Source: Candidatus Magasanikiibacteriota bacterium
GTDB taxonomy: Bacteria > Patescibacteriota > Patescibacteriia > Magasanikbacterales > GWA2-37-8
Length of the DNA: 64,000 nucleotides
NCBI GenBank assembly: GCA_036744835.1
Contig: DAIOHD010000001.1
Coordinates: 736,064-800,063 of the forward strand
Reading direction: 5' to 3'
In this document: positions 547 to 64,000 of the stretch, piece after piece
Numbering within the stretch: the stretch's first letter is position 1
Layout of the letters: each line of letters begins with the position of its first letter
Program-made: the position numbers and the translations under genes
The notes under the pieces: model-generated
Told to the model about the DNA's origin: nothing
The model's input: the letters and a program-made list of their open reading frames with translations, nothing else
Databases searched by the model: none

Positions 547-920
547 CAGTAGTGTTCGGTTTATTTTTTTTAAAAAAATAAACCAAAAAGACCCTCCCTT
601 TGGTTGCCTTTATAATAACTTAAAAAACTGTCTTTGGCAACTGGATAAATTTCGTTTAATTTATTTAAAATCCGCCTTTTCCACAAACACTTCAACCTAT
701 AGGTTGAAGTGTTTGTTTTGGCTAAAATAAAGGGATTATTCCCTCCTCTTCCTCAAGAGGAGGGCTAGGGTGGAATTTTTTAAAAAGACTCTCCCCTAAC
801 CTCCGCCTTCATCCAAGCTCCGTTAAAGCTACGCTGGACTACGGACGGACAAGCTCTCTCTTACATAAAAGAGGGGAATAAAAAACCCGCGCAGATATGC
901 ACGGGGTATGAAAGAACTTT

Positions 921-2304: not shown

Positions 2305-4767
2305 CTAATTTCTAATCTCTGCCCCAAACTTATCTTTCAATATTTTCACTATCTCCCCCATCACATCATCCACCTCTTCGTTCTTCAAAGTACGAGTGGA
2401 ATCGGAAAAAACAAAATGATACGCCATACTTTTAAATCCCTCTTTGACATGTTCGCCTTCATAAACATCAAACAATTCCACGAATTTCAAAATCGGTGAA
2501 ATATTTTGCAAAGATTTTAAAATTTCTTGATGTGTAACTTTTTTTTCTGCCACAAAAGCCAAATCACGAGTAGGTTCTGGAAATTGAGATAATGTTTGAT
2601 AAATAAAATCTTTTTTGGTTTTCAAAATATCTCGCAGATCGCTGAGATTTATTTCTACCACTCCAACTCTATCATTCAAATCCCATTTTTTGGCAGTGAG
2701 TGGATTGAGCTCATATACAAAACCTATTTTTTGCTCTTGCACCATCATCTCCCCGGCTCTGCCTGGATGCATATAACCTTTGATTTCTTTAATTTCTCTT
2801 AAATCAAAATTGAGTTGCAAATTTTCCATCACTTTTTCCAAAACCAAACGCGCTTTGATAAAACCGTTGTCACTTTTTTTCTCATAATTTATCGCGGTCA
2901 AGAAAACATCCTGACGTGGTAAAAGCTCATCTTCATTAGAAATTTCTCTTGGCCCCGGTAATTCAGATAAATATGTTTTTCCAATTTCAAAAATATCCAC
3001 CCGATCAAAATTTTCCATATTCTTTTGGACATTTTCCAATAAGTTTGGTAACAATTCTCGACGTAAATAAGGTTTTTCACTAGACAAAGGATTATCTAGT
3101 TCCAAATATTTATTTTTATCTTCACCCAAACGATCTATTTGCAAACCACTAACAAAAGAATAATTATCAACTTCATCGTAAACCAATTCTTTGGTCAAAA
3201 TATTTCGCAAATTGTGTTCCAAATCGCGTAAAATATTTTTTTCTGGAGGAGTAATTTCAAACTCCGGCATAGTGCTTTCGATTTTATCATAACCATAAAT
3301 CCTACCAACTTCTTCAATCAAATCTTCAGAAAGAGATATGTCTTTGGTAGCGCGCCAAGTCGGTATTTTGACACTCAATCCGTCTTTGCCTTTTTCTTTA
3401 ACTTCAAAACCCAGTCTTTGCAAGATACTGATGATTTCTTTTTTCTCAATTTGCACTCCAAGTTTTTTACAAATATCGCTCATGCTAGTTTGTAGCGGTC
3501 CAGTAGCTAGGTGGAAGTTCTTTTTATCTTCTACATTACTTATCACTTTGGCCTCAGAACAAAGCTCCAGCACCATCTCCACCGCTTTTTTCAAAGCTAT
3601 TTCCGCCATATTGGGGTCCAGGCTTTTTTCAAAACGAGCAGAGGAATCCGTGCGACTATCATAATGTAACGCGGTTTTACGCACACAAACTGGATCAAAA
3701 TTCGCAGCTTCAAAAATAATCTCTGTGGTATTGTCATTTATCCCACTATAAAATCCGCCCATCACCCCAGCAAGCGCGATAGGTTTTTCATCATCTGCAA
3801 TAACCAAATCGTTTTCCGTCAAAGATAATTCTTTTTCATCCAACAATTTGAATTTTTCTTTGTCAGTTGCTGTGCGAACAATGATGTGTTTTTGATTTTT
3901 GTTTTTTGTTTGGAGAGTTTGAGCGTCAAATGCATGAAGTGGTTGTCCCAAATCAAACATTATATAGTTAGTAATATCAACAATATTATTGATACTGCGC
4001 AAACCGATAGATGACAGCGCTCTTTGTAACCAGAGAGGCGACGGGCCAACTTGCACTCCGCTTATCGCTACAGCCATATAGCGCGGACAAAGCGGTTCAT
4101 CCTCCACTGTAACTTTCAATTTTATTTCTTTGCCCGGAGTTATTTCTTTTGTTTCGTAAGCACCAAATTCACGAGGAAAAAGCACAGCCACTTCGCGAGC
4201 GATACCATAATGTCCCCAGAGATCAGGACGATTGGAAAGAGATTTGTTGTCAATTTCCAAAATCACATCGTCTAATCCAAGAGCTTTTTTCAAATCCACC
4301 CCAACTTTCAAATTTAGCATGGTCAAATCCAAAATTTCTTTTTCATCTTTGAGCGGAAACATTTCAGTCAATCCGATTTCGCTCCCCGCACAAATCATGC
4401 CATAGGAATCTATGTCTCTGATTTTGGTCGGTACGATTTCCACCAACTCCCCCTCGCCGTGCCAACGAACTTTAGCACCTACTTTGGCCACTGCTACGAG
4501 CATGTCAGTAGTAACGTTACTGCCACCACAAACAATCTGAACTTTCTCTTTTCCCAAATCTACTTGGCAAAGTTTCAATTTATCAGCGTTGGGATGTTTA
4601 TCGGCTTTAAGCACCTTACCCACTACAATATTTTCTAAATTATCACCTTGTTTTATAATATTTTCCACTTCTACTGTACTCAATTTCAATTTCTCCGCCA
4701 CTATTTCGGGGGTGATGGAGTCAGGGATGGTAACGTATTTTTTCAGCCAATTGTATGAAATTAACAT
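2305..4767 (-). CDS. pheT: phenylalanine--tRNA ligase beta subunit
   Basis: 820 aa; MLISYNWLKKYV start, B3/4 and tRNA-binding regions, C-terminal FDVYEG..SMAY motif typical of PheT. Confidence 0.95.
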   Translation of the reverse strand: MLISYNWLKKYVTIPDSITPEIVAEKLKLSTVEVENIIKQGDNLENIVVGKVLKADKHPNADKLKLCQVDLGKEKVQIVCGGSNVTTDMLVAVAKVGAKVRWHGEGELVEIVPTKIRDIDSYGMICAGSEIGLTEMFPLKDEKEILDLTMLNLKVGVDLKKALGLDDVILEIDNKSLSNRPDLWGHYGIAREVAVLFPREFGAYETKEITPGKEIKLKVTVEDEPLCPRYMAVAISGVQVGPSPLWLQRALSSIGLRSINNIVDITNYIMFDLGQPLHAFDAQTLQTKNKNQKHIIVRTATDKEKFKLLDEKELSLTENDLVIADDEKPIALAGVMGGFYSGINDNTTEIIFEAANFDPVCVRKTALHYDSRTDSSARFEKSLDPNMAEIALKKAVEMVLELCSEAKVISNVEDKKNFHLATGPLQTSMSDICKKLGVQIEKKEIISILQRLGFEVKEKGKDGLSVKIPTWRATKDISLSEDLIEEVGRIYGYDKIESTMPEFEITPPEKNILRDLEHNLRNILTKELVYDEVDNYSFVSGLQIDRLGEDKNKYLELDNPLSSEKPYLRRELLPNLLENVQKNMENFDRVDIFEIGKTYLSELPGPREISNEDELLPRQDVFLTAINYEKKSDNGFIKARLVLEKVMENLQLNFDLREIKEIKGYMHPGRAGEMMVQEQKIGFVYELNPLTAKKWDLNDRVGVVEINLSDLRDILKTKKDFIYQTLSQFPEPTRDLAFVAEKKVTHQEILKSLQNISPILKFVELFDVYEGEHVKEGFKSMAYHFVFSDSTRTLKNEEVDDVMGEIVKILKDKFGAEIRN

Positions 4768-4901: not shown

Positions 4902-5933
4902 CTAAAATTGTTTTATAAAACTAAGATTGCCACTTTGTAACAATCTCACATCATCTATCCCATATTTGAGCATCACCATACGAGTCAAGCCAAAACCAAA
5001 AGCAAAACCACTATAAACTTGTGGATCAAGACCGCCAGCTCGCATCACATTGGGGTGGATCATCCCGGCGCCAAAAATTTCCATCCAACCAGTATGTTTA
5101 CAAACACCACATCCTTTTCCACCACAAAGCAAACAAGTCACTTCTCCGTTTACTCCCGGTTCAACAAACGGATAAAATTTCGGACGCAAACGAACTTTAG
5201 TTTCCGGACCAAACAAATATTGTGCTACATTTTCCAAAACCGCTTTCATGTGACCAAAGTTAATATTTTTATCCACCACCACACCTTCCAATTGATAAAA
5301 AGTATGTTCGTGTCTAGCATCTGTAGCTTCATTGCGAAAACAACGACCCGGGGTAATCATTCTCAAAGGTGCACCGTATTTTTCCATCGCCCGAACTTGG
5401 TTGGAAGAAGTATGAGTGCGCACCAACCAATTTTCATGATTTTTAATATAAAAAGTATCCTGACTTTCTCTGGCCGGATGGGTGGGTGGAATATTTATCG
5501 CTTCAAAATTGTAGTAATCACTTTCTAATTCCGGGCCATCCAACACCATAAAACCCATGGATGTAAACAAATCTTCCAAATCTTTTTGTACAATAGAATT
5601 GGGGTGTATATGTCCGCTTTCTTTTTTAGGTAAATAAGGTTGACTCAAATCAGCTTTTTCCTGGGCGATTATTTGCGCAAATCCAGCACTACTGAGTTCT
5701 TCTCTTTTACTATTTATCGCCTCTTCCAGTTCTTTTTTGATTTCATTAAGCATTTGTCCGATATTTTTCCTTTCTTCTGCGTTTAAATCTTTCATGCCTT
5801 TCATGAGCTCGGTCAATTCCCCATTTTTACGACCTAAATATTTATTTTCTAAATCATTTAACTCTGCTTCATTTTTACTTTCCAAAATTATAGGCAAAGC
5901 TTTTGTTTTTAATTGTTGCAATTTTTCTTGCAT
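4902..5933 (-). CDS. pheS: phenylalanine--tRNA ligase alpha subunit
   Basis: 343 aa; class II aaRS motifs (FRNEATDARHEHTFYQLEGVVVD, GFAFGFGLTRMVM). Confidence 0.95.
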   Translation of the reverse strand: MQEKLQQLKTKALPIILESKNEAELNDLENKYLGRKNGELTELMKGMKDLNAEERKNIGQMLNEIKKELEEAINSKREELSSAGFAQIIAQEKADLSQPYLPKKESGHIHPNSIVQKDLEDLFTSMGFMVLDGPELESDYYNFEAINIPPTHPARESQDTFYIKNHENWLVRTHTSSNQVRAMEKYGAPLRMITPGRCFRNEATDARHEHTFYQLEGVVVDKNINFGHMKAVLENVAQYLFGPETKVRLRPKFYPFVEPGVNGEVTCLLCGGKGCGVCKHTGWMEIFGAGMIHPNVMRAGGLDPQVYSGFAFGFGLTRMVMLKYGIDDVRLLQSGNLSFIKQF

Positions 5934-5939
5934 AGATTT

Positions 5940-7100
5940 TTAAAATATTTTATTTACCAAATTTATAAATATACCTCTAAATACTGATAAATCTTTTATC
6001 GTCACTACTAAAATCAAAAGCATCAACAACATGAAACCGACCGAGTGTGCAATTTGTTCAAATTTTGCTGGAGCTAATTTTTTATTTATTTTATTTAAAA
6101 TCAAAAATAATAATCTACCGCCGTCCAGTGCTGGAATCGGCAAAATATTTATGAAAGCTAAATTGAGAGACAATATAGCGGTAAATTGTAATAGATATAT
6201 AAAACCAAGTTTAGCAATTTTCCCGGTCATCACCGCAATACCTATCGGTCCGGCCATATCGCCAGCCATACTGGTTCCAACAAAAAGACCCTTAATAAAA
6301 TCCCAAAATGCGATAGCAATAGCGCCAAACATCAGAAAAGCGTTTTTAAATCCATAATAAAAAGATAAATACCAAGGATAGCTTACTGTGCCCAATTCTG
6401 CGATAGCCACACCGATACCAGCTCGACCGGTTTCCTCATACACAAAAGGTTTAATTTCTTTGGTAATTATTTCCTCGCCTCTTTTTATTGCAATGACTAT
6501 GTCTTCATCCCGATGGTTGTTAATATAATCCTGCATTTCTTTGAGTCGTGGATAATCTATAGAACCGACTTGGATAACCGCATCTCCTTCTTGTAAACCA
6601 GCGGTAGCGGCCGGTTTATTGGCAATTACTTGTAAAATTTCCACGCGACGATTTTCTACTTTAGCGCTATCTGGTAATTGCTCGGTCACTTGTGGTAAGC
6701 CAAACATATAACCAACAGAAAATAAAGCTCCGGCCAAAACTATGTTCATCACCACACCAGCTACAATAGTTACGGCTTTGGGCCAAAAACTTTTGGTTTG
6801 AAAACTATCCGGAGCCAAATCCTGTTCGTTTTCTCCGCGAATACTGACAAACCCGCCCAAAGGCAACCAATTTACACTATATAATGTATCGGCCGGACAA
6901 TCTTTGGCTTCATATTTTTTCCCGACAAATTTTATTTTTTTGGTAATAGGGTCTTTGTACCAACCAAAAGCACGAGGTGGAAAACCAAAACCAAATTCAT
7001 AAACTTTTATTCCACTTTTACGCGCGGAAACAAAATGTCCAAATTCGTGAGAAAGGACGAGAACGGCGAGAACGGCGATGAAGATAACTAATGTGAGCAT
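5940..7100 (-). CDS. rseP: RIP metalloprotease RseP (site-2 protease, M50 family with PDZ domain)
   Basis: HEFGHFVSAR zinc motif, PDZ region, C-terminal LDGG motif; multiple TM segments. Confidence 0.9.
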   Translation of the reverse strand: MLTLVIFIAVLAVLVLSHEFGHFVSARKSGIKVYEFGFGFPPRAFGWYKDPITKKIKFVGKKYEAKDCPADTLYSVNWLPLGGFVSIRGENEQDLAPDSFQTKSFWPKAVTIVAGVVMNIVLAGALFSVGYMFGLPQVTEQLPDSAKVENRRVEILQVIANKPAATAGLQEGDAVIQVGSIDYPRLKEMQDYINNHRDEDIVIAIKRGEEIITKEIKPFVYEETGRAGIGVAIAELGTVSYPWYLSFYYGFKNAFLMFGAIAIAFWDFIKGLFVGTSMAGDMAGPIGIAVMTGKIAKLGFIYLLQFTAILSLNLAFINILPIPALDGGRLLFLILNKINKKLAPAKFEQIAHSVGFMLLMLLILVVTIKDLSVFRGIFINLVNKIF

Positions 7101-7265
7101 AATAATTTAAGAAATTTAAAAAATTCAAAAGATTTAAGAAATTAAAAAACAATCTTTTAAATCTATTAAATCTTTTTAATCTTTTGAATATTGTTTCTTG
7201 CCTATTTCAGACAATACGGTATAATAAAACAACTTAACAAAAGTTAATTTATTATTTTAACCTAT

Positions 7266-9545: not shown

Positions 9546-9636
9546 AAAATGAGAAGAAAGTCAAGATTTACCCCTGTGAAATAATTTTTACCTTGAGGTA
9601 AAAATTGGCGAGAAGCGCCATTTCACGGGGTTTACC

Positions 9637-9668
9637 CCATAAAAAAGAGCCCCACGTTGGGGGGCTCT
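9637..9668 (-). terminator. rho-independent terminator for the 9684-10208 gene (agagcccc-acgttgg-ggggctct, T-run on minus strand)
   Basis: 8-bp GC-rich stem followed on the minus strand by TTTTTTAT. Confidence 0.6.
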
Positions 9669-10208: not shown

Positions 10209-10288
10209 CTCATCTCCTCCTGATTAAAGTTTTAGGGAACGAATAGATTATTTAAGCACAAAATAAGAAATATGTCAATATTTACCCC

Positions 10289-10318
10289 GTAAAAAACCAA
10301 GGCTTTGTGAGCCTTGGT
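10289..10318 (-). terminator. rho-independent terminator (ccaaggc-tttgtga-gccttgg, T-run on minus strand)
   Basis: 7-bp stem plus A6 tract on plus strand. Confidence 0.5.
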
Positions 10319-34827: not shown

Positions 34828-34857
34828 TCCCGGTTAAATCGGGATTATTTTTTTATT
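34824..34857 (+). terminator. rho-independent terminator of rel (aatcccg-gttaaat-cgggatt + T-run)
   Basis: 7-bp stem followed by TTTTTTTATT. Confidence 0.6.
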
Positions 34858-34891
34858 AAAAAGATTGCAAAAATTACAAAGATTTAAAAGA

Positions 34892-35809
34892 TTATTCCAA
34901 TCCAGTGATTTTGCGAATAAGTTGAACAAGTTCTTCTTTGGAATAATATGAGATATTGATACTTCCGGACTCCCCGCGAGCGGAAATGGAAACTTTGGTG
35001 CCAAGTGCTTCTCTTAATTTTTCTTCTAAAAACAAAAGATTGGCATCTCGTTTGATAGGAATTTTCTTAATTCTTATTTTTTGAGCCTCACGTTCCAATT
35101 CACGAACGGTTATTTTTTGTCCAAGCATCGATGAAAGCATTTCTAAGCGCTCTTTATCAGATGGTAGTGCTAACAAAGCTCTCGCTTGTCCAGTGTTTAT
35201 TTTACTATCTATCAATGCTTCTTTTACTTTTTCCGGCAAATCCAATAAACGAACGATATTTGCCACAAAAGATCGGCTCTTGCCAACTCTAACGGCTACT
35301 TCTTCTTGGGTTAAATTAAATTCTTCCATTAGTCTTTTGTAAGCAAAGCCTTCTTCAATCGGATTTAAATCAGCACGCTGTACATTTTCTATTAAAGATA
35401 CTTCTAACTTTTCTTGATCTTTAAATTCTTTTACCAAAGCTGGTACAGTAGCCAAACCAGCCAATTTACTGGCTCGCCAACGACGCTCTCCGGCAATAAT
35501 CTCATAATTACCATCTGATTTTTCTGATAAAACAAGAGGTTGTAAAACACCGTGTTTTTTAATACTTTCAGAAAGCTCGTCTAAAAGTTCCGGTTTAAAA
35601 TTTTTACGCGGTTGTTTTGGATTGCTAAAAATTTTACTTACTGGTATAAACCATAGATTATTTTCTAAATTTTTTTCTTCTTTTTTAACAATCGATTTTT
35701 CTGAAACAACCAAATTGCCCGCTTTTGAGACAACAGGTGTCACAATCGGTTCTTTTTTAATATTATTGTTAGACGAAATTAATGCGCCTAAACCTCGGCC
35801 TAGAGACAT
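34892..35809 (-). CDS. parB: chromosome partitioning protein ParB (Spo0J)
   Basis: ParB box PKQPRKNFKPELLDELSESIKKHGVLQPLVL, GERRWRA, HTH region. Confidence 0.9.
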   Translation of the reverse strand: MSLGRGLGALISSNNNIKKEPIVTPVVSKAGNLVVSEKSIVKKEEKNLENNLWFIPVSKIFSNPKQPRKNFKPELLDELSESIKKHGVLQPLVLSEKSDGNYEIIAGERRWRASKLAGLATVPALVKEFKDQEKLEVSLIENVQRADLNPIEEGFAYKRLMEEFNLTQEEVAVRVGKSRSFVANIVRLLDLPEKVKEALIDSKINTGQARALLALPSDKERLEMLSSMLGQKITVRELEREAQKIRIKKIPIKRDANLLFLEEKLREALGTKVSISARGESGSINISYYSKEELVQLIRKITGLE

Positions 35810-58236: not shown

Positions 58237-60312
58237 TTATTTCTTTTTTCCGGTAATAATATTTTGTGCAACATTACCAGGCACCTCAGCATAATGAGAA
58301 AATTCCATAGTAGAACTGGCACGACCCTGAGTAATATTACGTAAGTTGGTGGTATAACCAAACATAGATGCCAACGGTACGATGGCACGTACGGCTTTGA
58401 GCTGACCACGATCAGTCATTTCTTGAATTTGACCGCGTTTGGAATTAAGATCACCAATCACATCTCCCATGAATTGTTCTGGAGTCAAAACTTCCACTTT
58501 CATAATAGGTTCTAAAATTATCGGGTTAGCTTTACGACAAGCATCTTGAAAAGCCATGGAGCCGGCCATTTTGAAAGCAGCTTCAGAAGAATCAACTTCG
58601 TGATAAGAGCCATCATAACAAGTAACTTTAACGTCCACTACCGGATACCCAGCTTGGATACCACGAGTAATAGCTTCTTTAACACCTTTTTCAATCGCCG
58701 GTAAATATTCACGAGGAACAACGCCACCTTTAACAGCATCAATAAATTCAAAACCTTTATTTTCTTCTTGTGGTTCCACGCGCAACCAACAGTGACCGTA
58801 TTGACCTCGACCACCGGATTGTTTGACATATTTACCCTCGGCTTCAGCGGAATTTTTAATAGTTTCTTTATAAGCAACCTGTGGCGCCCCGACATTGGCT
58901 TCAACTTTAAATTCACGCTTCATACGATCCACGATAATTTCCAAGTGAAGCTCACCCATACCTTCAATAATAGTTTGCAAAGTTTCTTCATCGGTGTGAA
59001 CCTTGAAAGTCGGATCTTCTTCAGTAAGTTTTTGTAAAGCCATGCCGATTTTTTCTTGATCAACTTTGGTCTTTGGCTCAATAGCAACGGAAATAACCGG
59101 TTCCGGAAAAGTAATCTTTTCCAAAACAATCGGTTTATTTTCATCACAAAGAGTGTCTCCGGTAACAGTATCTTTGAGCCCAATAGCAGCCGCAATTTCT
59201 CCGGCAAAAACCTCGTTAACATCCTCACGGTGATTAGAATGCATACGCACAATACGAGAAATTCTTTCTTTTTCACCTTTGGTGGAATTAAGCATATAGG
59301 AACCGGCTGAAATTTTTCCTGAATAAACACGGAAAAAAATAAGACGACCAACAAATGGATCAGTAGCCACTTTAAAAGCAAGCGCAGAAAAAGGCTCGTC
59401 GTCATTGGCTTTGCGAGTCATCGGTTCGTCGGTATCCGGATTAAGACCTTTGATCTCTGGTAAATCGGTTGGAGCAGGTAAATAATAATTTACAGCATCA
59501 AGTCCTAATTGAACACCGATATTTCCTAAAGCACTACCACACATCACTGGAAAAACTCTACTGGCAATTACCATTTCACGAATAGCTTTTTTAATTTCTT
59601 CGACAGTTAGTGTTTCACCATTTAAAAATTTGCCCATAGTTTCATCGTTGGCTTCAGAAATTTTTTCAATCATTTCCGCACGATATTTAACAACGTTTTC
59701 TTTCATGTCTTCCGGAATAGGAATTTCCACAATATTTTCACCATTTTTCCCTTCAAATTTATAAGCTTTTTCTTCTATCAAATCAACGATACCTGAAAAA
59801 GTGCTTTCAGCACCAATTGGTAATTGAATAGCTACTGCATCTTTACTCAAACGTTCTTTAATAGAAGCCAAGGTCATATAAAAATCCGCACCCATCTTAT
59901 CCATTTTATTGGCGAAAGCGATACGAGGTACATTATATTTAGTAGCTTGATGCCAAACGGTTTCTGATTGAGGTTCTACACCTTGAGATCCGTCAAACAA
60001 AGCAACAGCTCCATCAAGTACACGCAAAGAACGCTCTACCTCTACGGTAAAGTCTACGTGTCCGGGAGTATCAATCAAATTGATACGATGGTTTTTCCAA
60101 AAACAAGTGGTGGCAGCAGAAGTGATAGTAATACCACGCTCTTTTTCTTGTTCCATCCAATCCATTTCTGCGGCCCCTTCGTGCACTTCACCAATTTTAT
60201 GTTTGCGTCCGGTATAAAACAAAACGCGTTCGGAAAAAGTGGTTTTACCGGCATCAATGTGAGCCATGATCCCGATATTTCTAGTTTTATCCAAAGGATA
60301 TTCACGAGGCAT
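58237..60312 (-). CDS. fusA: elongation factor G
   Basis: [25 protein letters not shown]..., 691 aa five-domain EF-G. Confidence 0.95.
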
Positions 60313-60319
60313 AAATAAA

Positions 60320-60420
60320 TTTATTTAAGAAATTTAAGAGATTTAAGAAATTTAAGAGATTGAAAGATTTTTATAAAAACAAATAATTTTTTAAATCTTT
60401 TTAATCTTTAAATCTTTTAA
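60320..60420. repeat. AT-only palindromic spacer: tandem aagaaatttaagagattt x2 mirrored by tttaaatctttttaatctttaaatctttt
   Basis: Read directly; related word set (aaagatttaa / ttaaatcttt) also at 7101-7180 and 34860-34892. Confidence 0.4.
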
Positions 60421-60423
60421 ATA

Positions 60424-60900
60424 TTATTTGGCGAATCTGGCAAAATGAGCAAAAGCTTTATTAGCTTCGGCCATTCTGTGGACATCATCGCGTTTTTTGA
60501 TAGCATCACCCAATCCTTGAGAGGCTTCAAATAAAACAGTAGCTAATTTTTGAGCCATTGGCTGTCCTTTTTTTGCTTGAGCCGCTCCGATAATCCATCT
60601 GAAAGCTAAAGAATTTTGGCGTTCGCCACGAACTGGAAGTGGAACTTGATAATTGGCACCACCGACTCTTTTGGAACGTACTTCAACTTGAGGAGATACA
60701 GTACGAACAGCTTCTTCAAAAACACCCATGGCGTCTTTTTTGGCCAATAAAGCTATTTTTTCCAAAGCTTCATAAACTACTCTTTGAGCGGTATTTTTTT
60801 TGCCGTCTTGCATCACATAATTGATAAATTTAGCCAATAATACACTACCGTATTTTGGATCGGCAACAATACTTCTTTTTATTGCTTTTTTTCCACGCAT
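60424..60900 (-). CDS. rpsG: 30S ribosomal protein S7
   Basis: MRGKKAIKRSIVADPKYGS... Confidence 0.95.
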   Translation of the reverse strand: MRGKKAIKRSIVADPKYGSVLLAKFINYVMQDGKKNTAQRVVYEALEKIALLAKKDAMGVFEEAVRTVSPQVEVRSKRVGGANYQVPLPVRGERQNSLAFRWIIGAAQAKKGQPMAQKLATVLFEASQGLGDAIKKRDDVHRMAEANKAFAHFARFAK

Positions 60901-60920: not shown

Positions 60921-61349
60921 TTATGCTTTCTTGGCTTTCGGTCTCTTTGTACCGTAAACACTTCGACCACGACGACGACTTTCAATACCTTGAGTATCAA
61001 AAACACCACGTACAATATGATAACGAACACCTGGTAAATCTTTTACTCTACCACCGCGAATCAAAACTATAGAGTGTTCTTGAAGATTATGTCCTTCTCC
61101 AGGAATATAAGCGATAACCTCTACACCATTACTTAAACGAACTTTGGCGACTTTACGCAAAGCGGAGTTTGGTTTTTTTGGAGTAGTGGTATAAACTTTG
61201 GTGCAAACACCTCGTTTAAAAGCGCATCCTTTGGCAAATACGGTTTTACGACGATGTAAATTATCAATCGTAAATTGTAAAGCTGGATTTTTGCTTTTAA
61301 CCACCTTACTTTTGCGCCCTTTTCTGATAACTTGGTTAATTGTCGGCAT
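60921..61349 (-). CDS. rpsL: 30S ribosomal protein S12
   Basis: [24 protein letters not shown]...[11 protein letters not shown]. Confidence 0.95.
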
Positions 61350-61509
61350 AAAAATGCTTTAATTTTAAACTCAAAAATGAGCTTTTTGTAAATTAAGTAA
61401 TAAAAAAACAACGTTTCAAAATCAGCCACGATTTCTTAACGTTTTTTAGACGTTTACGTTCGAATAAAATAATATCAAAATCAGATGACCTTGTCAAGGT
61501 GTTTGGATC

Positions 61510-61600
61510 TATAGTTTTTATCCCCGTGAACTTTCATGGGGTTTACCCTGTGAACTCCTGCCTTCGGCAGGGTCACCCGCTAAGGCGGGTGAAAGTTCAC
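61510..61600. ncRNA. structured element upstream of rpsL: 15-bp helix tttaccctgtgaact/agttcacagggtaaa enclosing two short hairpins (cctgcc-ttc-ggcagg and cacccgc-taag-gcgggtg), preceded by ccccgtgaactttcatgggg
   Basis: Perfect 15-bp inverted repeat at 61532-61546 / 61584-61598. Shares the GGGGTTTACCC(t/c)GTGAA motif with 9568-9640 and 10275-10290. Confidence 0.4.
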
Positions 61601-61624
61601 AGGGTAAATAAAAAAAGCGCCACC

Positions 61625-61960
61625 TTATTTACGGTCGCGCTGTGAGATTAAGACTGTAAGCCAGTCTCTTAGATATCTATTAAAACTCTCATCTTCGGTC
61701 AAAATGATATTTTGAGGAAAACAGTAGATTGTATTTCTCTCAAAATTTTTTATCTTCTGGCCGTCTTTCACCTCTACCATTTTTTTGTTGTTTTGATGAT
61801 TTTCCGAGCTTACTATTATATTTTGAGGAAAATAATAAACAGTGCCCATCTCAAGTTTTTCTAACTTATCACCTTTTTCCACTTTTACAAACCTAGTCAG
61901 ACTCTTTTTATCACCTTCACAGCCCTTTGAATCTTGGGTAACCATGATAACCTCCGACAA
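61625..61960 (-). CDS. hypothetical protein with internal tandem repeat (TVYYFPQNIIVSSENHQ / TIYCFPQNIILTEDESF)
   Basis: 111-aa ORF; duplicated ~35-aa unit visible in translation. Confidence 0.4.
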   Translation of the reverse strand: MSEVIMVTQDSKGCEGDKKSLTRFVKVEKGDKLEKLEMGTVYYFPQNIIVSSENHQNNKKMVEVKDGQKIKNFERNTIYCFPQNIILTEDESFNRYLRDWLTVLISQRDRK

Positions 61961-62362
61961 AAAAATAATAAAAAATAAAACAAAGAACGAGTTACATTAC
62001 CTTATTTTGACGTTTTTGTCAATACCCTCATCCCCACCCCGCCCGGACCTTCTTTTTTTATAAAAAACAACTGGTAAGGCGAGCATTTGTAATCGCGAAG
62101 ATAAAATTTATAGACGAGCTGAGCGTTAAAAAATTCCACTTGTTTGAGCCCGAAGGGTGAGTTTGGAATTTTAGTGAAGCGACGTCATAAATTTACGTAG
62201 CGATTATAACAGCGAGCGATTTTCTTTCAGTCCACTTTCTTTTCTAAAAAGAAAGTGGACAAAACTGCGAAGCAAAATAAAAATATTTAGAAAGAAGGAT
62301 GTTGGAATAACAAGGGAGACAAAAACTCTCCCTTAATCCCTCTCTTGAGGAAGAGAGGGAAA

Positions 62363-63661
62363 CTACAGCAAAGGTACCTGTCTGAATTTATTTATCTCTT
62401 TCTCCCCCACCAACCCTATCTTCCCATACACCCCATCATATCCCGGAGACAGATCTACCCTGCCAGTACGCATATTATTGATAGCTAACCACAGCTCCGG
62501 ATATTTTGTATGTTGCAAAATTTCCTTTTCACCAGCTTTTGTCAAAATATAAAATTCCGAACCGATATTTTTGATCAGATGTTCGTATTCGGCTACAACT
62601 TTTTTGGATTTGGGGCCAACTTCCAAAATTTGCGATAAAATTTCCAGGAGCGGGACAATATATTTGTGCGGAATAAATTTTTCCCACGGAATTTCGCTCA
62701 CTTCCCTACTGGCCAAATCATCCACCCTGTGTTCCACCCCTATGACCAGAGGTTTTTTGCATTTCGGGCAAATATTTTTTTCTTTCTTGCTTTGTTTGGG
62801 AGATAAACAAACACCGCAAACCGCATGACCGTCGTATTGGTACATTCCTTCTTCTGGATAAAATTCAATTGTATATAAAAACTTTTTTCTATCTCCAGTA
62901 AAAATTATTTTTTTGATTTCATCATAAGTAATTTTGTTTTCGTCGGCAAAAGAAAAAACATTTGCTTCACGTCCTAGTTTATCCAAACTATGGGCATCAG
63001 AATTTGATACCAAAGTTATTTTATCTAGTTTTTCCAAGCGATGGTTCATGTTTGGGTCACTACTTAACCCTGTTTCTATCGCACAAATTTGGGGAGTGAG
63101 CTCTTCAAAACATTCTTCCAAACTGTCATAACCGGATTTGGAACCGAAAATAGCATACCAAGGAGTCCAGGCGTGCGCCGGAATCATAAAACATCTTTTG
63201 TCGGCTTTCAAAATCAGCTGTAAAAGTTTTTTTGCCGACATGCCGATAATCGGCCGGCCATCGGATCGGCGATTCAAACCCAGTTTATCAAAATCATCAT
63301 TGATTTTTTCCACCGCCTGCAAACTCGGCGCGAAAATGAGCAAGTGTACCCGACGGGTTTTATCTTTGTCTTTATAAATACAAGAAATTTCCGTACCAAG
63401 TATGAAGCGTGTCGGATTTTTCCCCTCCTTTTGTGAAGAGGAGGGCGAGGGTGGAGTCTTTAATTCAAAAAGTCCGCTATTACCAATTTCTTTCAATTCT
63501 TTTTGAATATGTTCAAACCATTTCGGGTGGGTAAAATCACCGGTGGCCACAATATCAATCCCTTTTTTGAGACACATGGCGGCAATTTTTGGCAATTCCA
63601 AATCCGGGCTACAAGCCCGTGAATATTTGGAGTGGATATGTAAATCAAGAATTTTTTCCAT
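62363..63661 (-). CDS. PHP-domain phosphoesterase with internal C4 zinc finger (endonuclease Q-like family)
   Basis: LDLHIHSKYSRACSP PHP N-terminus, ...GDFTHPKW..., later AHAWTPW, NSDAHS, and CGVC...CPKC finger. Contains low-complexity insert TPPSPSSSQKEG (see findings). Confidence 0.6.
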   Translation of the reverse strand: MEKILDLHIHSKYSRACSPDLELPKIAAMCLKKGIDIVATGDFTHPKWFEHIQKELKEIGNSGLFELKTPPSPSSSQKEGKNPTRFILGTEISCIYKDKDKTRRVHLLIFAPSLQAVEKINDDFDKLGLNRRSDGRPIIGMSAKKLLQLILKADKRCFMIPAHAWTPWYAIFGSKSGYDSLEECFEELTPQICAIETGLSSDPNMNHRLEKLDKITLVSNSDAHSLDKLGREANVFSFADENKITYDEIKKIIFTGDRKKFLYTIEFYPEEGMYQYDGHAVCGVCLSPKQSKKEKNICPKCKKPLVIGVEHRVDDLASREVSEIPWEKFIPHKYIVPLLEILSQILEVGPKSKKVVAEYEHLIKNIGSEFYILTKAGEKEILQHTKYPELWLAINNMRTGRVDLSPGYDGVYGKIGLVGEKEINKFRQVPLL

Positions 63662-64000
63662 AATCAAAATCATTGTATTCCAACACCATTTCCTTATCCC
63701 CAGTCGCTGTTTTGAAAGTCAGTTTATCTGCAAATAATGCAATGCTTTTATCAGAAAGTGGTTTTTCAGCTCCATATTTAATATCACCAATCAATGGATG
63801 GCCAAGATGTGCAAATTGCACACGGATTTGATGATGGCGTCCGGTTTTGAGATTTATTTTTACCAAAGTATTTCCTTTTATTTCTTTTACCACTTCATAA
63901 TCCAATTCCGCGCGTTGACTGCCAGCAACTTCTCTATCAAAAATTTCCGCTTTATTATTTTTTTCATTATGTTTGAGAAAATTTATCAGCGTGCCTTTTT
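63645..64000 (-). CDS. RluA-family pseudouridine synthase, C-terminal part (gene continues beyond window end)
   Basis: TGRHHQIRVQFAHLGHPLIGDIKYG motif; ORF open to window edge. Confidence 0.75.
   Translation of the reverse strand, partial: KGTLINFLKHNEKNNKAEIFDREVAGSQRAELDYEVVKEIKGNTLVKINLKTGRHHQIRVQFAHLGHPLIGDIKYGAEKPLSDKSIALFADKLTFKTATGDKEMVLEYNDFDYGKNS

What the first reader, a model, noticed from the sequence alone, without database searches (positions are those of the whole stretch)
61510..61600. Multi-stem element upstream of rpsL sharing a GGGGTTTACCC/GTGAA motif with other spacers
A perfect 15-bp helix (tttaccctgtgaact / agttcacagggtaaa) encloses two short hairpins (cctgcc-ttc-ggcagg and cacccgc-taag-gcgggtg). 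It is preceded by ccccgtgaactttcatgggg. The words ggggtttaccc and cc(c)ctgtgaa recur at 9568-9640 (cccctgtgaaat...atttcacggggtttacccc) and 10275-10290. At 61510-61600 the element lies 150-250 nt upstream of the str-operon start and just downstream of a minus-strand gene. It could be a leader, a terminator complex, or a third repeat family.
Basis: seen in the sequence. Interest (0 to 1): 0.5.

Follow-up and report, generated by a model that had tools for sequence, protein, structure and literature searches.

The report
Widespread T-shaped palindromic intergenic repeat
The hairpin cluster upstream of rpsL is not a ribosomal-protein leader: it is one copy of a short T-shaped palindromic DNA repeat whose 15-base arms recur between genes in dozens of uncultured species from several bacterial phyla, and neither Rfam nor any searchable paper describes it.

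Summary
Window 61542-61608 is a perfect 15-bp helix that encloses two mini-hairpins, and 9567-9638 is a second copy with the same architecture.

The str operon is on the minus strand. The element lies between the upstream gene's own terminator and the rpsL promoter (TTGACA-17-TATTAT, -35 at 61497-61492), so it is not in the rpsL leader.

- **Close relatives (RpsL at least 92% identical):** all carry 1-2 such units at this spot, with swapped or inverted interiors. One interior is 37/37 identical only as the reverse complement.
- **More distant relatives (90% or less):** they keep the promoter and leader but lack the element.
- **Wider distribution:** It found none in 2.9 million viral contigs.
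- **Consensus:** TT(T/C)ACCCYGTGAAAT, two hairpins with C-NNN-G triloops, then ATTTCACRGGGT(G/A)AA.
- **Pairing:** it covaries and is strictly Watson-Crick and strand-symmetric. Copies are intergenic and have no target-site duplication, no associated transposase, no Rfam match and no literature match.

Best reading: a REP/BIME- or MITE-like DNA-level palindromic repeat, a new variant of that kind. How it spreads and what it does are unknown.

The parts
61542..61608 (.). Full T-shaped palindromic unit: 15-nt arms 61542-61556 and 61594-61608, inner hairpin 61557-61571 (triloop), inner hairpin 61573-61592 (tetraloop)
   Evidence: fold, z about -10 on both strands. (model R1: 50.2 bits on the - strand, 48.9 on the + strand). 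(the same interior in L010, inverted, 37/37).
61522..61541 (.). Minimal unit with no interior hairpins: CCCCGTGAA-ct-TTCATGGGG, joined to the main unit by TTTA
   Evidence: The homologous CCTCATGAAAGTTCACAGGG is in L002. Weak on its own: DNA fold z -3.0 on the + strand and -1.4 on the - strand.
61610..61640 (-). Intrinsic terminator of the upstream 111-aa ORF (hairpin 61640-61617, T7 run 61616-61610). It directly abuts the unit and is not part of the repeat.
   Evidence: The same GCGC-hairpin, T-run, A, TTTACCC junction is in all close relatives.
61469..61497 (-). rpsL promoter TTGACA-17-TATTAT with TG extension. It lies downstream (in the rpsL sense) of the element.
   Evidence: 11 of 12 matches. 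Conserved in all relatives, including those without the element.
9567..9638 (.). Second full unit: arms CCCC(T)GTGAAAT 9571-9582 and ATTTCACGGGG 9620-9630, hairpins 9583-9606 and 9607-9619, plus a flanking half-arm TTTACCCC 9631-9638. It lies between a minus-strand terminator (9668-9646) and a promoter (-35 at 9564-9559).
   Evidence: (38.0 bits on the - strand, 34.6 on the + strand). Its interior type recurs at the rpsL locus of L003, L006, L011 and L002.
10281..10293 (.). Solo remnant or half-arm TTTACCCCGTAAA (GGGGTAAA on the minus strand) between terminator 10318-10296 and promoter TTGACA
   Evidence: Not significant with model R1.

Best explanation
The element is a member of an interspersed family of short palindromic DNA repeats, in the manner of REP/BIME/REPIN or MITE elements, and its active form is a DNA hairpin or cruciform rather than a dedicated RNA.

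**Shown**
- Each unit has a 15-bp arm pair, TT(T/C)ACCCYGTGAAAT and its complement. The base of the stem is a CCC/GGG clamp.
- The interior is 22-37 nt and usually consists of two perfect mini-hairpins with 3-nt loops, which gives a T-shaped three-way junction.
- Units sit in intergenic DNA. In this small genome they fill the short gap between one gene's terminator and the next gene's promoter.
- Units occur singly, in tandem or as fragments.
- Orthologous sites in close relatives carry different interiors or inverted ones.

**Inferred**
- Copies are spread or homogenised by a hairpin-dependent process. This would be either a trans-acting enzyme that reads the conserved arm in folded single-stranded DNA, or gene conversion between copies.
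- Interiors flip by recombination or template switching between the arms.
- At rpsL the element is a passenger in a neutral gap. At most it buffers supercoiling or read-through between the upstream gene and the strong rpsL promoter. It does not regulate rpsL as a leader.
For: **Family membership and spread**
- The scan found 119 or more loci in 83 assemblies against about 14 expected.
- A model built from Bacteroidota and Cloacimonadota copies recovers both window copies at E 3e-14 and 4e-10.
- Some loci hold several copies, for example 5 in 6.5 kb of L044 and 5 in 8 kb of L057.
- In my listing many hits lie within about 100 nt of a contig end, as expected where repeats break assemblies.

**Structure**
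- 95.6% of cells are paired, against 82.9% in shuffles (0 of 500 reach it) and 38-45% when the pairing is slid.
- Nine of the 11 inner pairs carry compensatory double changes.
- Arm variants also change on both sides, for example GTTAAAT/ATTTAAC and GTGGAAT/ATTCCAC.

**DNA-like symmetry**
- Folding energy favours one strand in 45 copies and the other in 47, and G-U pairs number 58 against 58.
- Relative to flanking-gene sense the split is 23 against 23, with 38 against 39 G-U pairs.
- G-U pairs are almost absent from the inner helices.
- 109 of 150 loops are triloops. In the asymmetric elements 93 of 103 triloops are closed 5'-C...G-3', and loop sequences show no strand bias.

**Context**
- 108 of 133 copies are intergenic, in co-directional, divergent and convergent settings.
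- No sequence is conserved outside the arms.

**Turnover at rpsL**
- The element is present in all 6 lineages with RpsL at least 92% identical, with 1-2 units and two interior types.
- It is absent from the lineages with RpsL 90% identical or less whose upstream sequence is held (L131, L133, L134/L136). These keep the promoter and leader.
- Interiors are inverted: window against L010 is 37/37 as reverse complement and 26/37 direct; L003 against L006 unit 2 is 34/37 against 21/37.
- The interior type at window locus 9567-9638 occurs at rpsL in relatives.

**Not in the rpsL transcript**
- The promoter lies downstream of the element.
Against: - The arms are conserved across phyla while the interiors are free. 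That is unusual for REPs, which are lineage-specific and co-evolve with their RAYT, and for MITEs, whose copies share a conserved interior.
- There is no target-site duplication.
- No transposase or recombinase recurs next to copies, and no HUH-Y1 motif was found in about 1.06 Mb of held DNA.
- Copy number in Patescibacteria looks low: 2 per 64 kb here, and single strict-pattern hits on contigs of 650-830 kb.
- Asymmetric copies are co-oriented with the downstream gene 47 against 21 (p = 0.002). This hints at a strand-specific or promoter-linked role, although related copies are not independent.
- Retention at the same spot in six lineages could also reflect function.
Confidence: 0.55

Rival explanations
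1. RNA element carried on neighbouring transcripts. The very stable T-shaped hairpin is transcribed by read-through from the upstream gene, or as part of a 5' leader elsewhere. It acts as a barrier to 3'-exonucleases, a backup terminator or an RNase III substrate, as described for some REP, ERIC and Correia elements.
For: - The fold is very stable.
- Many copies lie 2-25 nt after a stop codon of a co-oriented gene.
- Several Patescibacteria copies are followed by GGGGTGAA and a T-run.
- One copy lies immediately 5' of a 16S rRNA gene (L065).
- The TTTA/TGAA ends give a U-G rather than a C-A in the orientation that is co-directional with the downstream gene, 47 against 21.
- A weak, sub-threshold resemblance to the Rfam Gut-1 RNA, which has GUGAAAU words between CUUCG hairpins.
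Against: - There is no strand asymmetry in folding energy or G-U content, either in absolute terms or relative to gene sense.
- Interiors flip between close relatives.
- In the window both copies lie after a canonical terminator and before a promoter.
- There is no general T-run after the element.
- No conserved promoter sits at a fixed distance upstream, so it is not an independent sRNA gene.
- It occurs in divergent intergenic regions.
Confidence: 0.2
2. Host DNA site for a conserved DNA-binding protein (nucleoid-associated, chromosome-organising or regulatory). Each arm is itself a near-palindrome, TTCAC-CCY-GTGAA. A unit would present two such 13-bp sites about 43-45 bp apart, often just upstream of a -35 hexamer.
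For: - The arms are conserved across phyla while the interiors are not.
- Desulfobacterota copies include direct repeats of the arm (L028, L035, L090).
- The 3' end of the unit lies 0-2 nt from a -35 in window locus 9567-9638, in the 10281 remnant, and in L046 and L083.
- The orientation bias is toward the downstream gene.
- The element is retained at rpsL in six lineages.
Against: - Arm variants change on both sides so that pairing is kept, and the interiors are selected to fold. Two independent duplex binding sites would not need either.
- The promoters involved already have consensus -35 and -10 hexamers.
- rpsL relatives without the element keep the same promoter.
- The flanking genes share no functional theme.
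- I recalled partial resemblances to Rex/CRP-type half-sites and to parS half-sites, but the spacing is wrong. These are leads from memory and were not tested.
Confidence: 0.17
3. Cis-regulatory leader of the str operon, for example a binding site for a ribosomal protein that feeds back on rpsL-rpsG-fusA.
For: Only its position upstream of rpsL, and its retention there in close relatives.
Against: - It lies upstream of the promoter -35.
- It is absent from relatives that keep the promoter and a conserved 5'UTR box, TCGTGGCTG plus a T-run.
- It is present at unrelated loci in many phyla.
- Its orientation differs between relatives.
Confidence: 0.02

Closest known systems
REP / BIME / REPIN elements mobilised by RAYT (TnpA-REP, HUH-Y1) transposases
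   Same: - Short extragenic palindromes found singly, in inverted pairs and in mosaic clusters.
- Three consecutive G-C pairs at the bottom of the stem.
- A complementary tetranucleotide 'double foot' at both ends, as described for RAYT subclass 2.4 REPs (PMC6006769).
- No target-site duplication.
- Persistence at orthologous sites.
   Different: - The foot is TTTA/TTCA/CTTG, not GT[AG]G or CGTC.
- The tip is T-shaped with two inner hairpins.
- The arms are conserved across phyla, whereas REPs are lineage-specific.
- No RAYT was found in any held sequence.
- Copy number in this lineage is low.
TIR repeats of TIRYT 'TIRtrons' (Di Nocera et al. 2013, PMC3733652)
   Same: - Moderately abundant inverted-repeat families, arranged as dimers or clusters.
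- They share a motif, GGGGWSAS, across unrelated species. GGGGTGAA at the unit's 3' end matches 7 of its 8 positions.
   Different: - The match is partial, and the window copies read GGGTAAA.
- No TIRYT gene was seen.
- The paper's TIR sequences are in figures that are not held, so I could not compare them.
MITEs such as Neisseria Correia elements, and the modular pneumococcal BOX elements
   Same: - Small non-coding elements with terminal inverted repeats, located between genes and next to promoters and terminators.
- Modular or variable interior (BOX).
- Stable folding.
   Different: - No target-site duplication.
- No parent insertion sequence with the same ends.
- The interior is not conserved among copies.
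- Distribution spans phyla.
T-shaped inverted terminal repeats of adeno-associated virus, and small hairpin-loop inversions in chloroplast DNA (structural and mechanistic analogues, from my own knowledge)
   Same: - An outer palindrome encloses two small palindromes.
- Two configurations differ by inversion of the interior ('flip/flop').
- A short segment flanked by inverted arms can invert.
   Different: - These are chromosomal internal sites, not replicon ends.
- There is no Rep gene.
- The resemblance is structural only.
Rfam Gut-1 RNA (RF01706; Weinberg et al. 2010, PMC2864571)
   Same: GUGAAAU words alternate with short CUUCG-type hairpins.
   Different: - The score is 24.4 bits against a gathering score of 50, on one Bacteroidota tandem copy only.
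- The window copies do not hit it.
- Gut-1 has direct, not inverted, GUGAAAU words.

Membership tests
REP/REPIN (RAYT-associated) | Conserved 5' GT[AG]G (or CGTC) tetranucleotide at the foot of the hairpin | tested here: not met
   The foot is TTTA, TTCA or CTTG. GTGA occurs only inside the arm.
REP/REPIN (RAYT-associated) | A cognate RAYT (HUH-Y1) gene, usually flanked by the repeats | tested here: inconclusive
   A regex for published HUH...Y motifs found none in 1.06 Mb of held DNA. No recurrent neighbouring gene was found. Whole genomes could not be searched.
REP/REPIN (RAYT-associated) | Many extragenic copies per genome, with GC-rich stem bases | tested here: inconclusive
   The CCC/GGG clamp is met. 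Copies are extragenic (108 of 133). Density is high in some Bacteroidota and Cloacimonadota loci but only 2 per 64 kb here.
MITE | Terminal inverted repeats flanked by a target-site duplication | tested here: not met
   TIRs are present. Flanks are not conserved and are not direct repeats. The apparent GGGGTAAA duplication at 9567-9638 is not reproduced at 61542-61608 or elsewhere.
MITE | An autonomous parent element with the same ends | tested here: inconclusive
   No pair of arms flanks an ORF in the held loci. There are no hits in viral contigs or plasmids.
Ribosomal-protein operon leader | Lies within the 5'UTR and is conserved with the operon | tested here: not met
   It lies upstream of the -35 and is absent from relatives with RpsL 90% identical or less.
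Intrinsic terminator | A GC-rich hairpin immediately followed by a U-tract | tested here: not met
   No T-run follows 61542-61608 on either strand. A separate terminator lies at 61640-61610. Some Patescibacteria copies elsewhere do have a T-run.
Integron attC site | R''(RYYYAAC)...R'(GTTRRRY) order, extrahelical bases, cassette arrays with an integrase | tested here: not met
   The arms read GTGAAAT...ATTTCAC. In the GTTAAAT variants the order of the boxes is reversed. The stems are perfect. No integrase or cassette array was seen. The consensus used is from my own knowledge.
Any Rfam 15 family | Score at or above the family's gathering threshold | tested here: not met
   at the gathering threshold. 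at E up to 10. The best hit is Gut-1 at 24.4 bits against 50.
Structured non-coding RNA (generic) | Strand-specific structure, with G-U pairs and stability favouring the transcribed strand | tested here: not met
   Favoured strand 45 against 47 and G-U 58 against 58. Relative to gene sense, 23 against 23 and 38 against 39.

The most novel reading that the evidence does not exclude
The family is a distinct class of prokaryotic repeat, neither REP/RAYT, MITE nor attC. It would be a T-shaped DNA hairpin whose 15-nt arm is read by an as yet unidentified machinery shared by Bacteroidota, Cloacimonadota, Desulfobacterota, Patescibacteria and other mostly anaerobic lineages. Its interior would undergo flip/flop inversion. 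It would be either a new hairpin-dependent mobile element system or a conserved chromosomal structural site.
Probability: 0.25. Interest if true: 0.8.

Novelty: new variant of a known kind. Interest (0 to 1): 0.6.

Why it matters
- **Annotation.** It removes a tempting mis-annotation (an 'rpsL leader') and points to the real conserved leader box downstream of the promoter.
- **An open puzzle.** It exposes a repeat family with an unusual combination of properties: arms conserved across phyla, free but always hairpin-forming interiors, strict strand symmetry, inversion between close relatives, and no visible transposase. If a cognate protein exists, the family gives a direct handle for finding it by phylogenetic profiling. 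If none exists, it is a case of palindromic DNA that persists by host processes alone.
- **Practical effects.** Such elements may break metagenome assemblies (many hits lie near contig ends in my listing), may mimic structured RNAs in comparative screens, and mark fast-evolving terminator-promoter gaps in reduced genomes.

Tried and rejected
**Searches that found nothing relevant**
- tRNA, tmRNA and Rfam searches: nothing at the gathering threshold, and only noise or a sub-threshold Gut-1 hit at E up to 10.
- Literature: six 11-mers of the arms occur only as unrelated primers. Keyword searches for REP, MITE and palindromes in CPR or Bacteroidetes found no description.
- Viral contigs gave 0 hits and plasmids gave no match.
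- The metagenome scan with the AT-rich inner hairpin returned mostly unrelated palindromes. Only L139 and L162 are family members.

**Ideas tested and dropped**
- *Leader:* rejected on promoter position and on absence from more distant relatives.
- *Target-site duplication:* GGGGTAAA flanks the copy at 9567-9638 and stands alone at 10281, but this is not reproduced elsewhere.
- *Neighbouring transposase or RAYT:* all-against-all clustering of flanking ORFs found only housekeeping families, plus four-helix-bundle proteins in 5 loci. An HUH-Y1 regex found nothing.
- *GNA-triloop strand bias, as a sign of a functional DNA strand:* none (20 against 25).
- *Independent sRNA gene:* no conserved upstream promoter.
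- *Mis-binning as the cause of the cross-phylum spread:* similarity between loci of different labels is confined to the element or to short repeat mosaics. However, some NCBI labels are clearly wrong; see the items noticed in passing.

**Resemblances recalled from memory, not tested beyond spacing**
- Rex/CRP boxes, parS, dif, attC and DnaA boxes. The spacing or the order of the half-sites does not fit.

Full report
**1. What is there**

The str operon is on the minus strand: rpsL 61349..60921, rpsG 60900..60424, fusA 60312..58237. A 111-aa ORF of unknown function lies upstream at 61960..61625.

Read in the rpsL sense, the intergenic region has this order:
- the upstream ORF's stop codon, which sits inside a hairpin (61640-61617) followed by T7 (61616-61610), a canonical intrinsic terminator;
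- the 67-nt element (61608-61542);
- a 20-nt mini-palindrome (61541-61522);
- 24 nt of spacer;
- a near-consensus promoter, TTGACA-17-TATTAT with a TG extension (61497..61469, 11 of 12 matches);
- a 5'UTR of roughly 110 nt.

It folds far better than shuffles, and equally well on both strands, as RNA (z -9.0 and -9.4) and as DNA (-31.0 and -30.7 kcal/mol, z about -10).

**2. A second copy in the window**

Region 9567-9638 has arms CCCC(T)GTGAAAT / ATTTCACGGGG around two hairpins of unrelated sequence. The GTGAA...TTCAC span is 51 nt, identical to that at rpsL. This copy too lies between a minus-strand terminator (9668-9646) and a minus-strand promoter (-35 at 9564-9559).

CCCYGTGAA is enriched in the window: 5 occurrences against 0.46 expected. 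The site at 10281 is only a half-arm (GGGGTAAA on the minus strand) between another terminator and promoter.

**3. Relatives**

RpsL homologues place the organism in Patescibacteria. I fetched the rpsL upstream region from six lineages with RpsL 92-96% identical.

All six share one layout: terminator T-run, A, TTTACCCYGTGAAMT, two hairpins, AKTTCACRGGGTRAA, a partial unit, then the -35.

The content of that layout is fluid:
- There are one or two full units.
- There are two recurrent interior types. Type I is CCTGCC-GAA-GGCAGG plus TCACCCGC-CTTA-GCGGGTGA. Type II is GGCGC-TTCG-CGCC plus AATTTTTACC-NNNN-GGTAAAAATT.
- Type II is also the interior of the window's copy at 9567-9638, which is a non-orthologous locus.

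L010 carries the window's type I interior inverted: 37/37 identical as reverse complement against 26/37 direct. L003 carries an inverted type II interior: 34/37 against 21/37.

Of the four more distant lineages fetched (RpsL 90% identical or less), L131, L133 and L134/L136 hold enough upstream sequence. They keep the promoter and a conserved leader box (TCGTGGCTG followed by a T-run) but have no element. L132 holds only 83 nt upstream of rpsL and is uninformative on this point.

The element is therefore an addition in one sub-lineage. It lies outside the rpsL transcript and turns over quickly.

**4. The family is far wider**

I scanned one genome per species (596 Gb) with the pattern TTTACCCYGTGAA-N{30,55}-TTCACNGGG.
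About 14 hits were expected by chance.
- By record title the hosts are Bacteroidota (the most numerous), Cloacimonadota, Desulfobacterota, several Patescibacteria classes, Ignavibacteriaceae, Stahlbacteria, Elusimicrobia and Binatia.
- The same pattern has no match in 2.9 million viral contigs.
- The element has no BLAST match in 72,556 plasmids.

Positions I did not force are also conserved. The full consensus is TT(T/C)ACCCYGTGAAAT ... ATTTCACRGGGT(G/A)AA, and nothing is conserved outside it.

A covariance model built from 20 Bacteroidota and Cloacimonadota copies does two things. It recovers both window copies (50 and 38 bits) and nothing else in the window. It also finds extra, pattern-independent copies in the loci, up to 5 in 6.5-8 kb. 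Those unbiased copies show complementary feet (TTCA..TGAA, TTTA..TAAA, CTTG..CAAG). Their arm variants change on both sides so that pairing is kept.

**5. Structure, and which molecule**

On a gap-free alignment of 20 copies:
- 95.6% of cells pair, against 82.9% in shuffles (0 of 500 reach it) and 38-45% when the pairing is slid;
- the inner helices are 99% paired;
- 9 of the 11 inner pairs show double changes.

The median z-score of the interior against shuffles is -2.0.

The structure has none of the asymmetry expected of a functional RNA:
- One strand folds better in 45 copies and the other in 47, with G-U pairs 58 against 58.
- Relative to co-directional flanking genes the split is 23 against 23, with G-U 38 against 39.
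- G-U pairs are almost absent from the inner helices.
- 109 of 150 loops are minimal triloops. In the asymmetric elements 93 of 103 triloops are closed 5'-C...G-3', and loop sequences occur equally on both strands.

Together with the interior inversions, this points to selection or generation at the level of DNA palindromes: hairpins in single-stranded DNA, or cruciforms.

**6. Context**
- 108 of 133 copies overlap no ORF of 100 aa or more. They occur in co-directional, divergent and convergent gaps, roughly in proportion to available space.
- Asymmetric copies (TTTA...TGAA) are co-oriented with the downstream gene 47 against 21 (p = 0.002). The split is 43 against 32 for the upstream gene, which is not significant. 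Related copies are not independent, so I treat this as a lead. It could reflect a replication-strand bias or a promoter-side preference.
- No protein family recurs next to the copies.
- No HUH-Y1 signature was found in 1.06 Mb of held DNA.
- There is no target-site duplication.

**7. Comparison with what is known**

The closest concept is the REP/BIME/REPIN world. Published REP classes include long hairpins with three G-C pairs at the stem bottom and a complementary 'double foot' (PMC6006769). TIR-type repeats around TIRYT genes share a GGGGWSAS motif across species (PMC3733652), and GGGGTGAA matches 7 of its 8 positions.

The defining GT[AG]G or CGTC tag is absent, however. No RAYT or TIRYT gene was seen, the tip is T-shaped, and the arms are conserved across phyla.

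MITE membership fails on the target-site duplication and on the missing parent element. attC membership fails on box order and on the perfect stems. Rfam offers only a sub-threshold Gut-1 hit (24 against 50 bits).

I found no paper that prints the arm sequence.

**8. Verdict**

'Leader' is wrong. The 'terminator' is a separate neighbouring feature.

The most likely nature is a DNA-level, REP/MITE-like palindromic repeat that occupies the terminator-promoter gap as a passenger (confidence about 0.55). The main rivals are an RNA stabiliser or terminator role (about 0.2) and a protein-binding host site (about 0.17).

The mode of spread and any function are inferred, not shown.

Noticed in passing
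window 61402-61443 (minus strand); same region in L002-L011 and L131-L134: The rpsL 5'UTR holds an invariant box, TCGTGGCTG (window 61431-61423), followed 12-18 nt later by a T-run (61408-61402). It is conserved even in distant Patescibacteria that lack the palindromic element. It is a candidate true leader or attenuator of the str operon. The consensus fold is weak (-2.7 kcal/mol).
   Followed up: partly
window 60314-60421, 7105-7195, 34854-34902: A separate AT-rich repeat family (units of about 9 nt, ATTTAAGAR, in tandem and inverted). It fills the rpsG-fusA spacer and two other spacers (families D1, I2, I3, I7 and I8).
   Followed up: no
window 733-780, 62321-62362, 63414-63461: A third repeat, GGATT(A/T)TTCCC(C)TCC...GAGGAGGG..., contains a CCCTC/GAGGG hairpin. 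The copy at 63414-63461 lies inside the 436-aa ORF 62363..63673, so it may be an in-frame intragenic repeat insertion.
   Followed up: no
L065 about 3105-3163 (Saccharibacteria MAG): A family member lies within a few bases of the 5' end of a 16S rRNA gene (AGAGTTTGATCCTGGCTCAG), so there it would be part of the pre-rRNA leader.
   Followed up: no
L048 about 4919-4989; L105 about 6709-6778; also L035, L124, L130: Four-helix-bundle ORFs that I recognised by eye as resembling 23S-rRNA-IVS / Avd-type proteins (not scanned against Pfam) lie near copies in 5 loci. In L048 and L105 the ORF reads out of the element's 3' arm (ILFHGVNQ...), with a possible GTG start inside GGGGTGAA.
   Followed up: partly
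L003/L019 (GCA_964459625.1, CAYWMO01); L038/L060/L130 (CAYRYH01); several 'Bdellovibrionales' MAGs: NCBI titles call these MAGs Gammaproteobacteria or Bdellovibrionales. However, CAYWMO01 encodes an RpsL 96% identical to this Patescibacteria window, and its loci are low-GC and CPR-like. Record-title taxonomy in the hit list is therefore partly unreliable.
   Followed up: partly
L120 (Cloacimonadota) vs L124 (Bacteroidales) vs L091 (Prolixibacteraceae): These elements have nearly identical interiors (AATGCTTTGCATT + AAAATCTNNGATTTT) in MAGs assigned to different phyla, in opposite end-orientation. This is either recent cross-phylum transfer of a subfamily or mis-binning.
   Followed up: no
L119 5320-5560: The same 8-kb locus has hairpins with the TTTA + CCCC foot but other arm sequences (CCCCGCACAC..., CCCCGTTAAAT...). 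The family defined by GTGAAAT arms may therefore be part of a broader class of hairpins with a TTTA foot and a CCCC clamp.
   Followed up: no
L138, L140, L142, L150, L156, L158, L161, L163 (Ga0058701 contigs): An unrelated, very dense palindromic repeat (GGGAATTTTTACCCCCCGGTAAAAATTCCC and variants) turned up in one JGI metagenome during the hairpin scan.
   Followed up: no
P0001, P0004, P0005, P0008, P0010, P0011, P0013: Several database RpsL entries of close relatives are called at 194-229 aa instead of 142 aa. These are probably start codons mis-called upstream into the leader.
   Followed up: no
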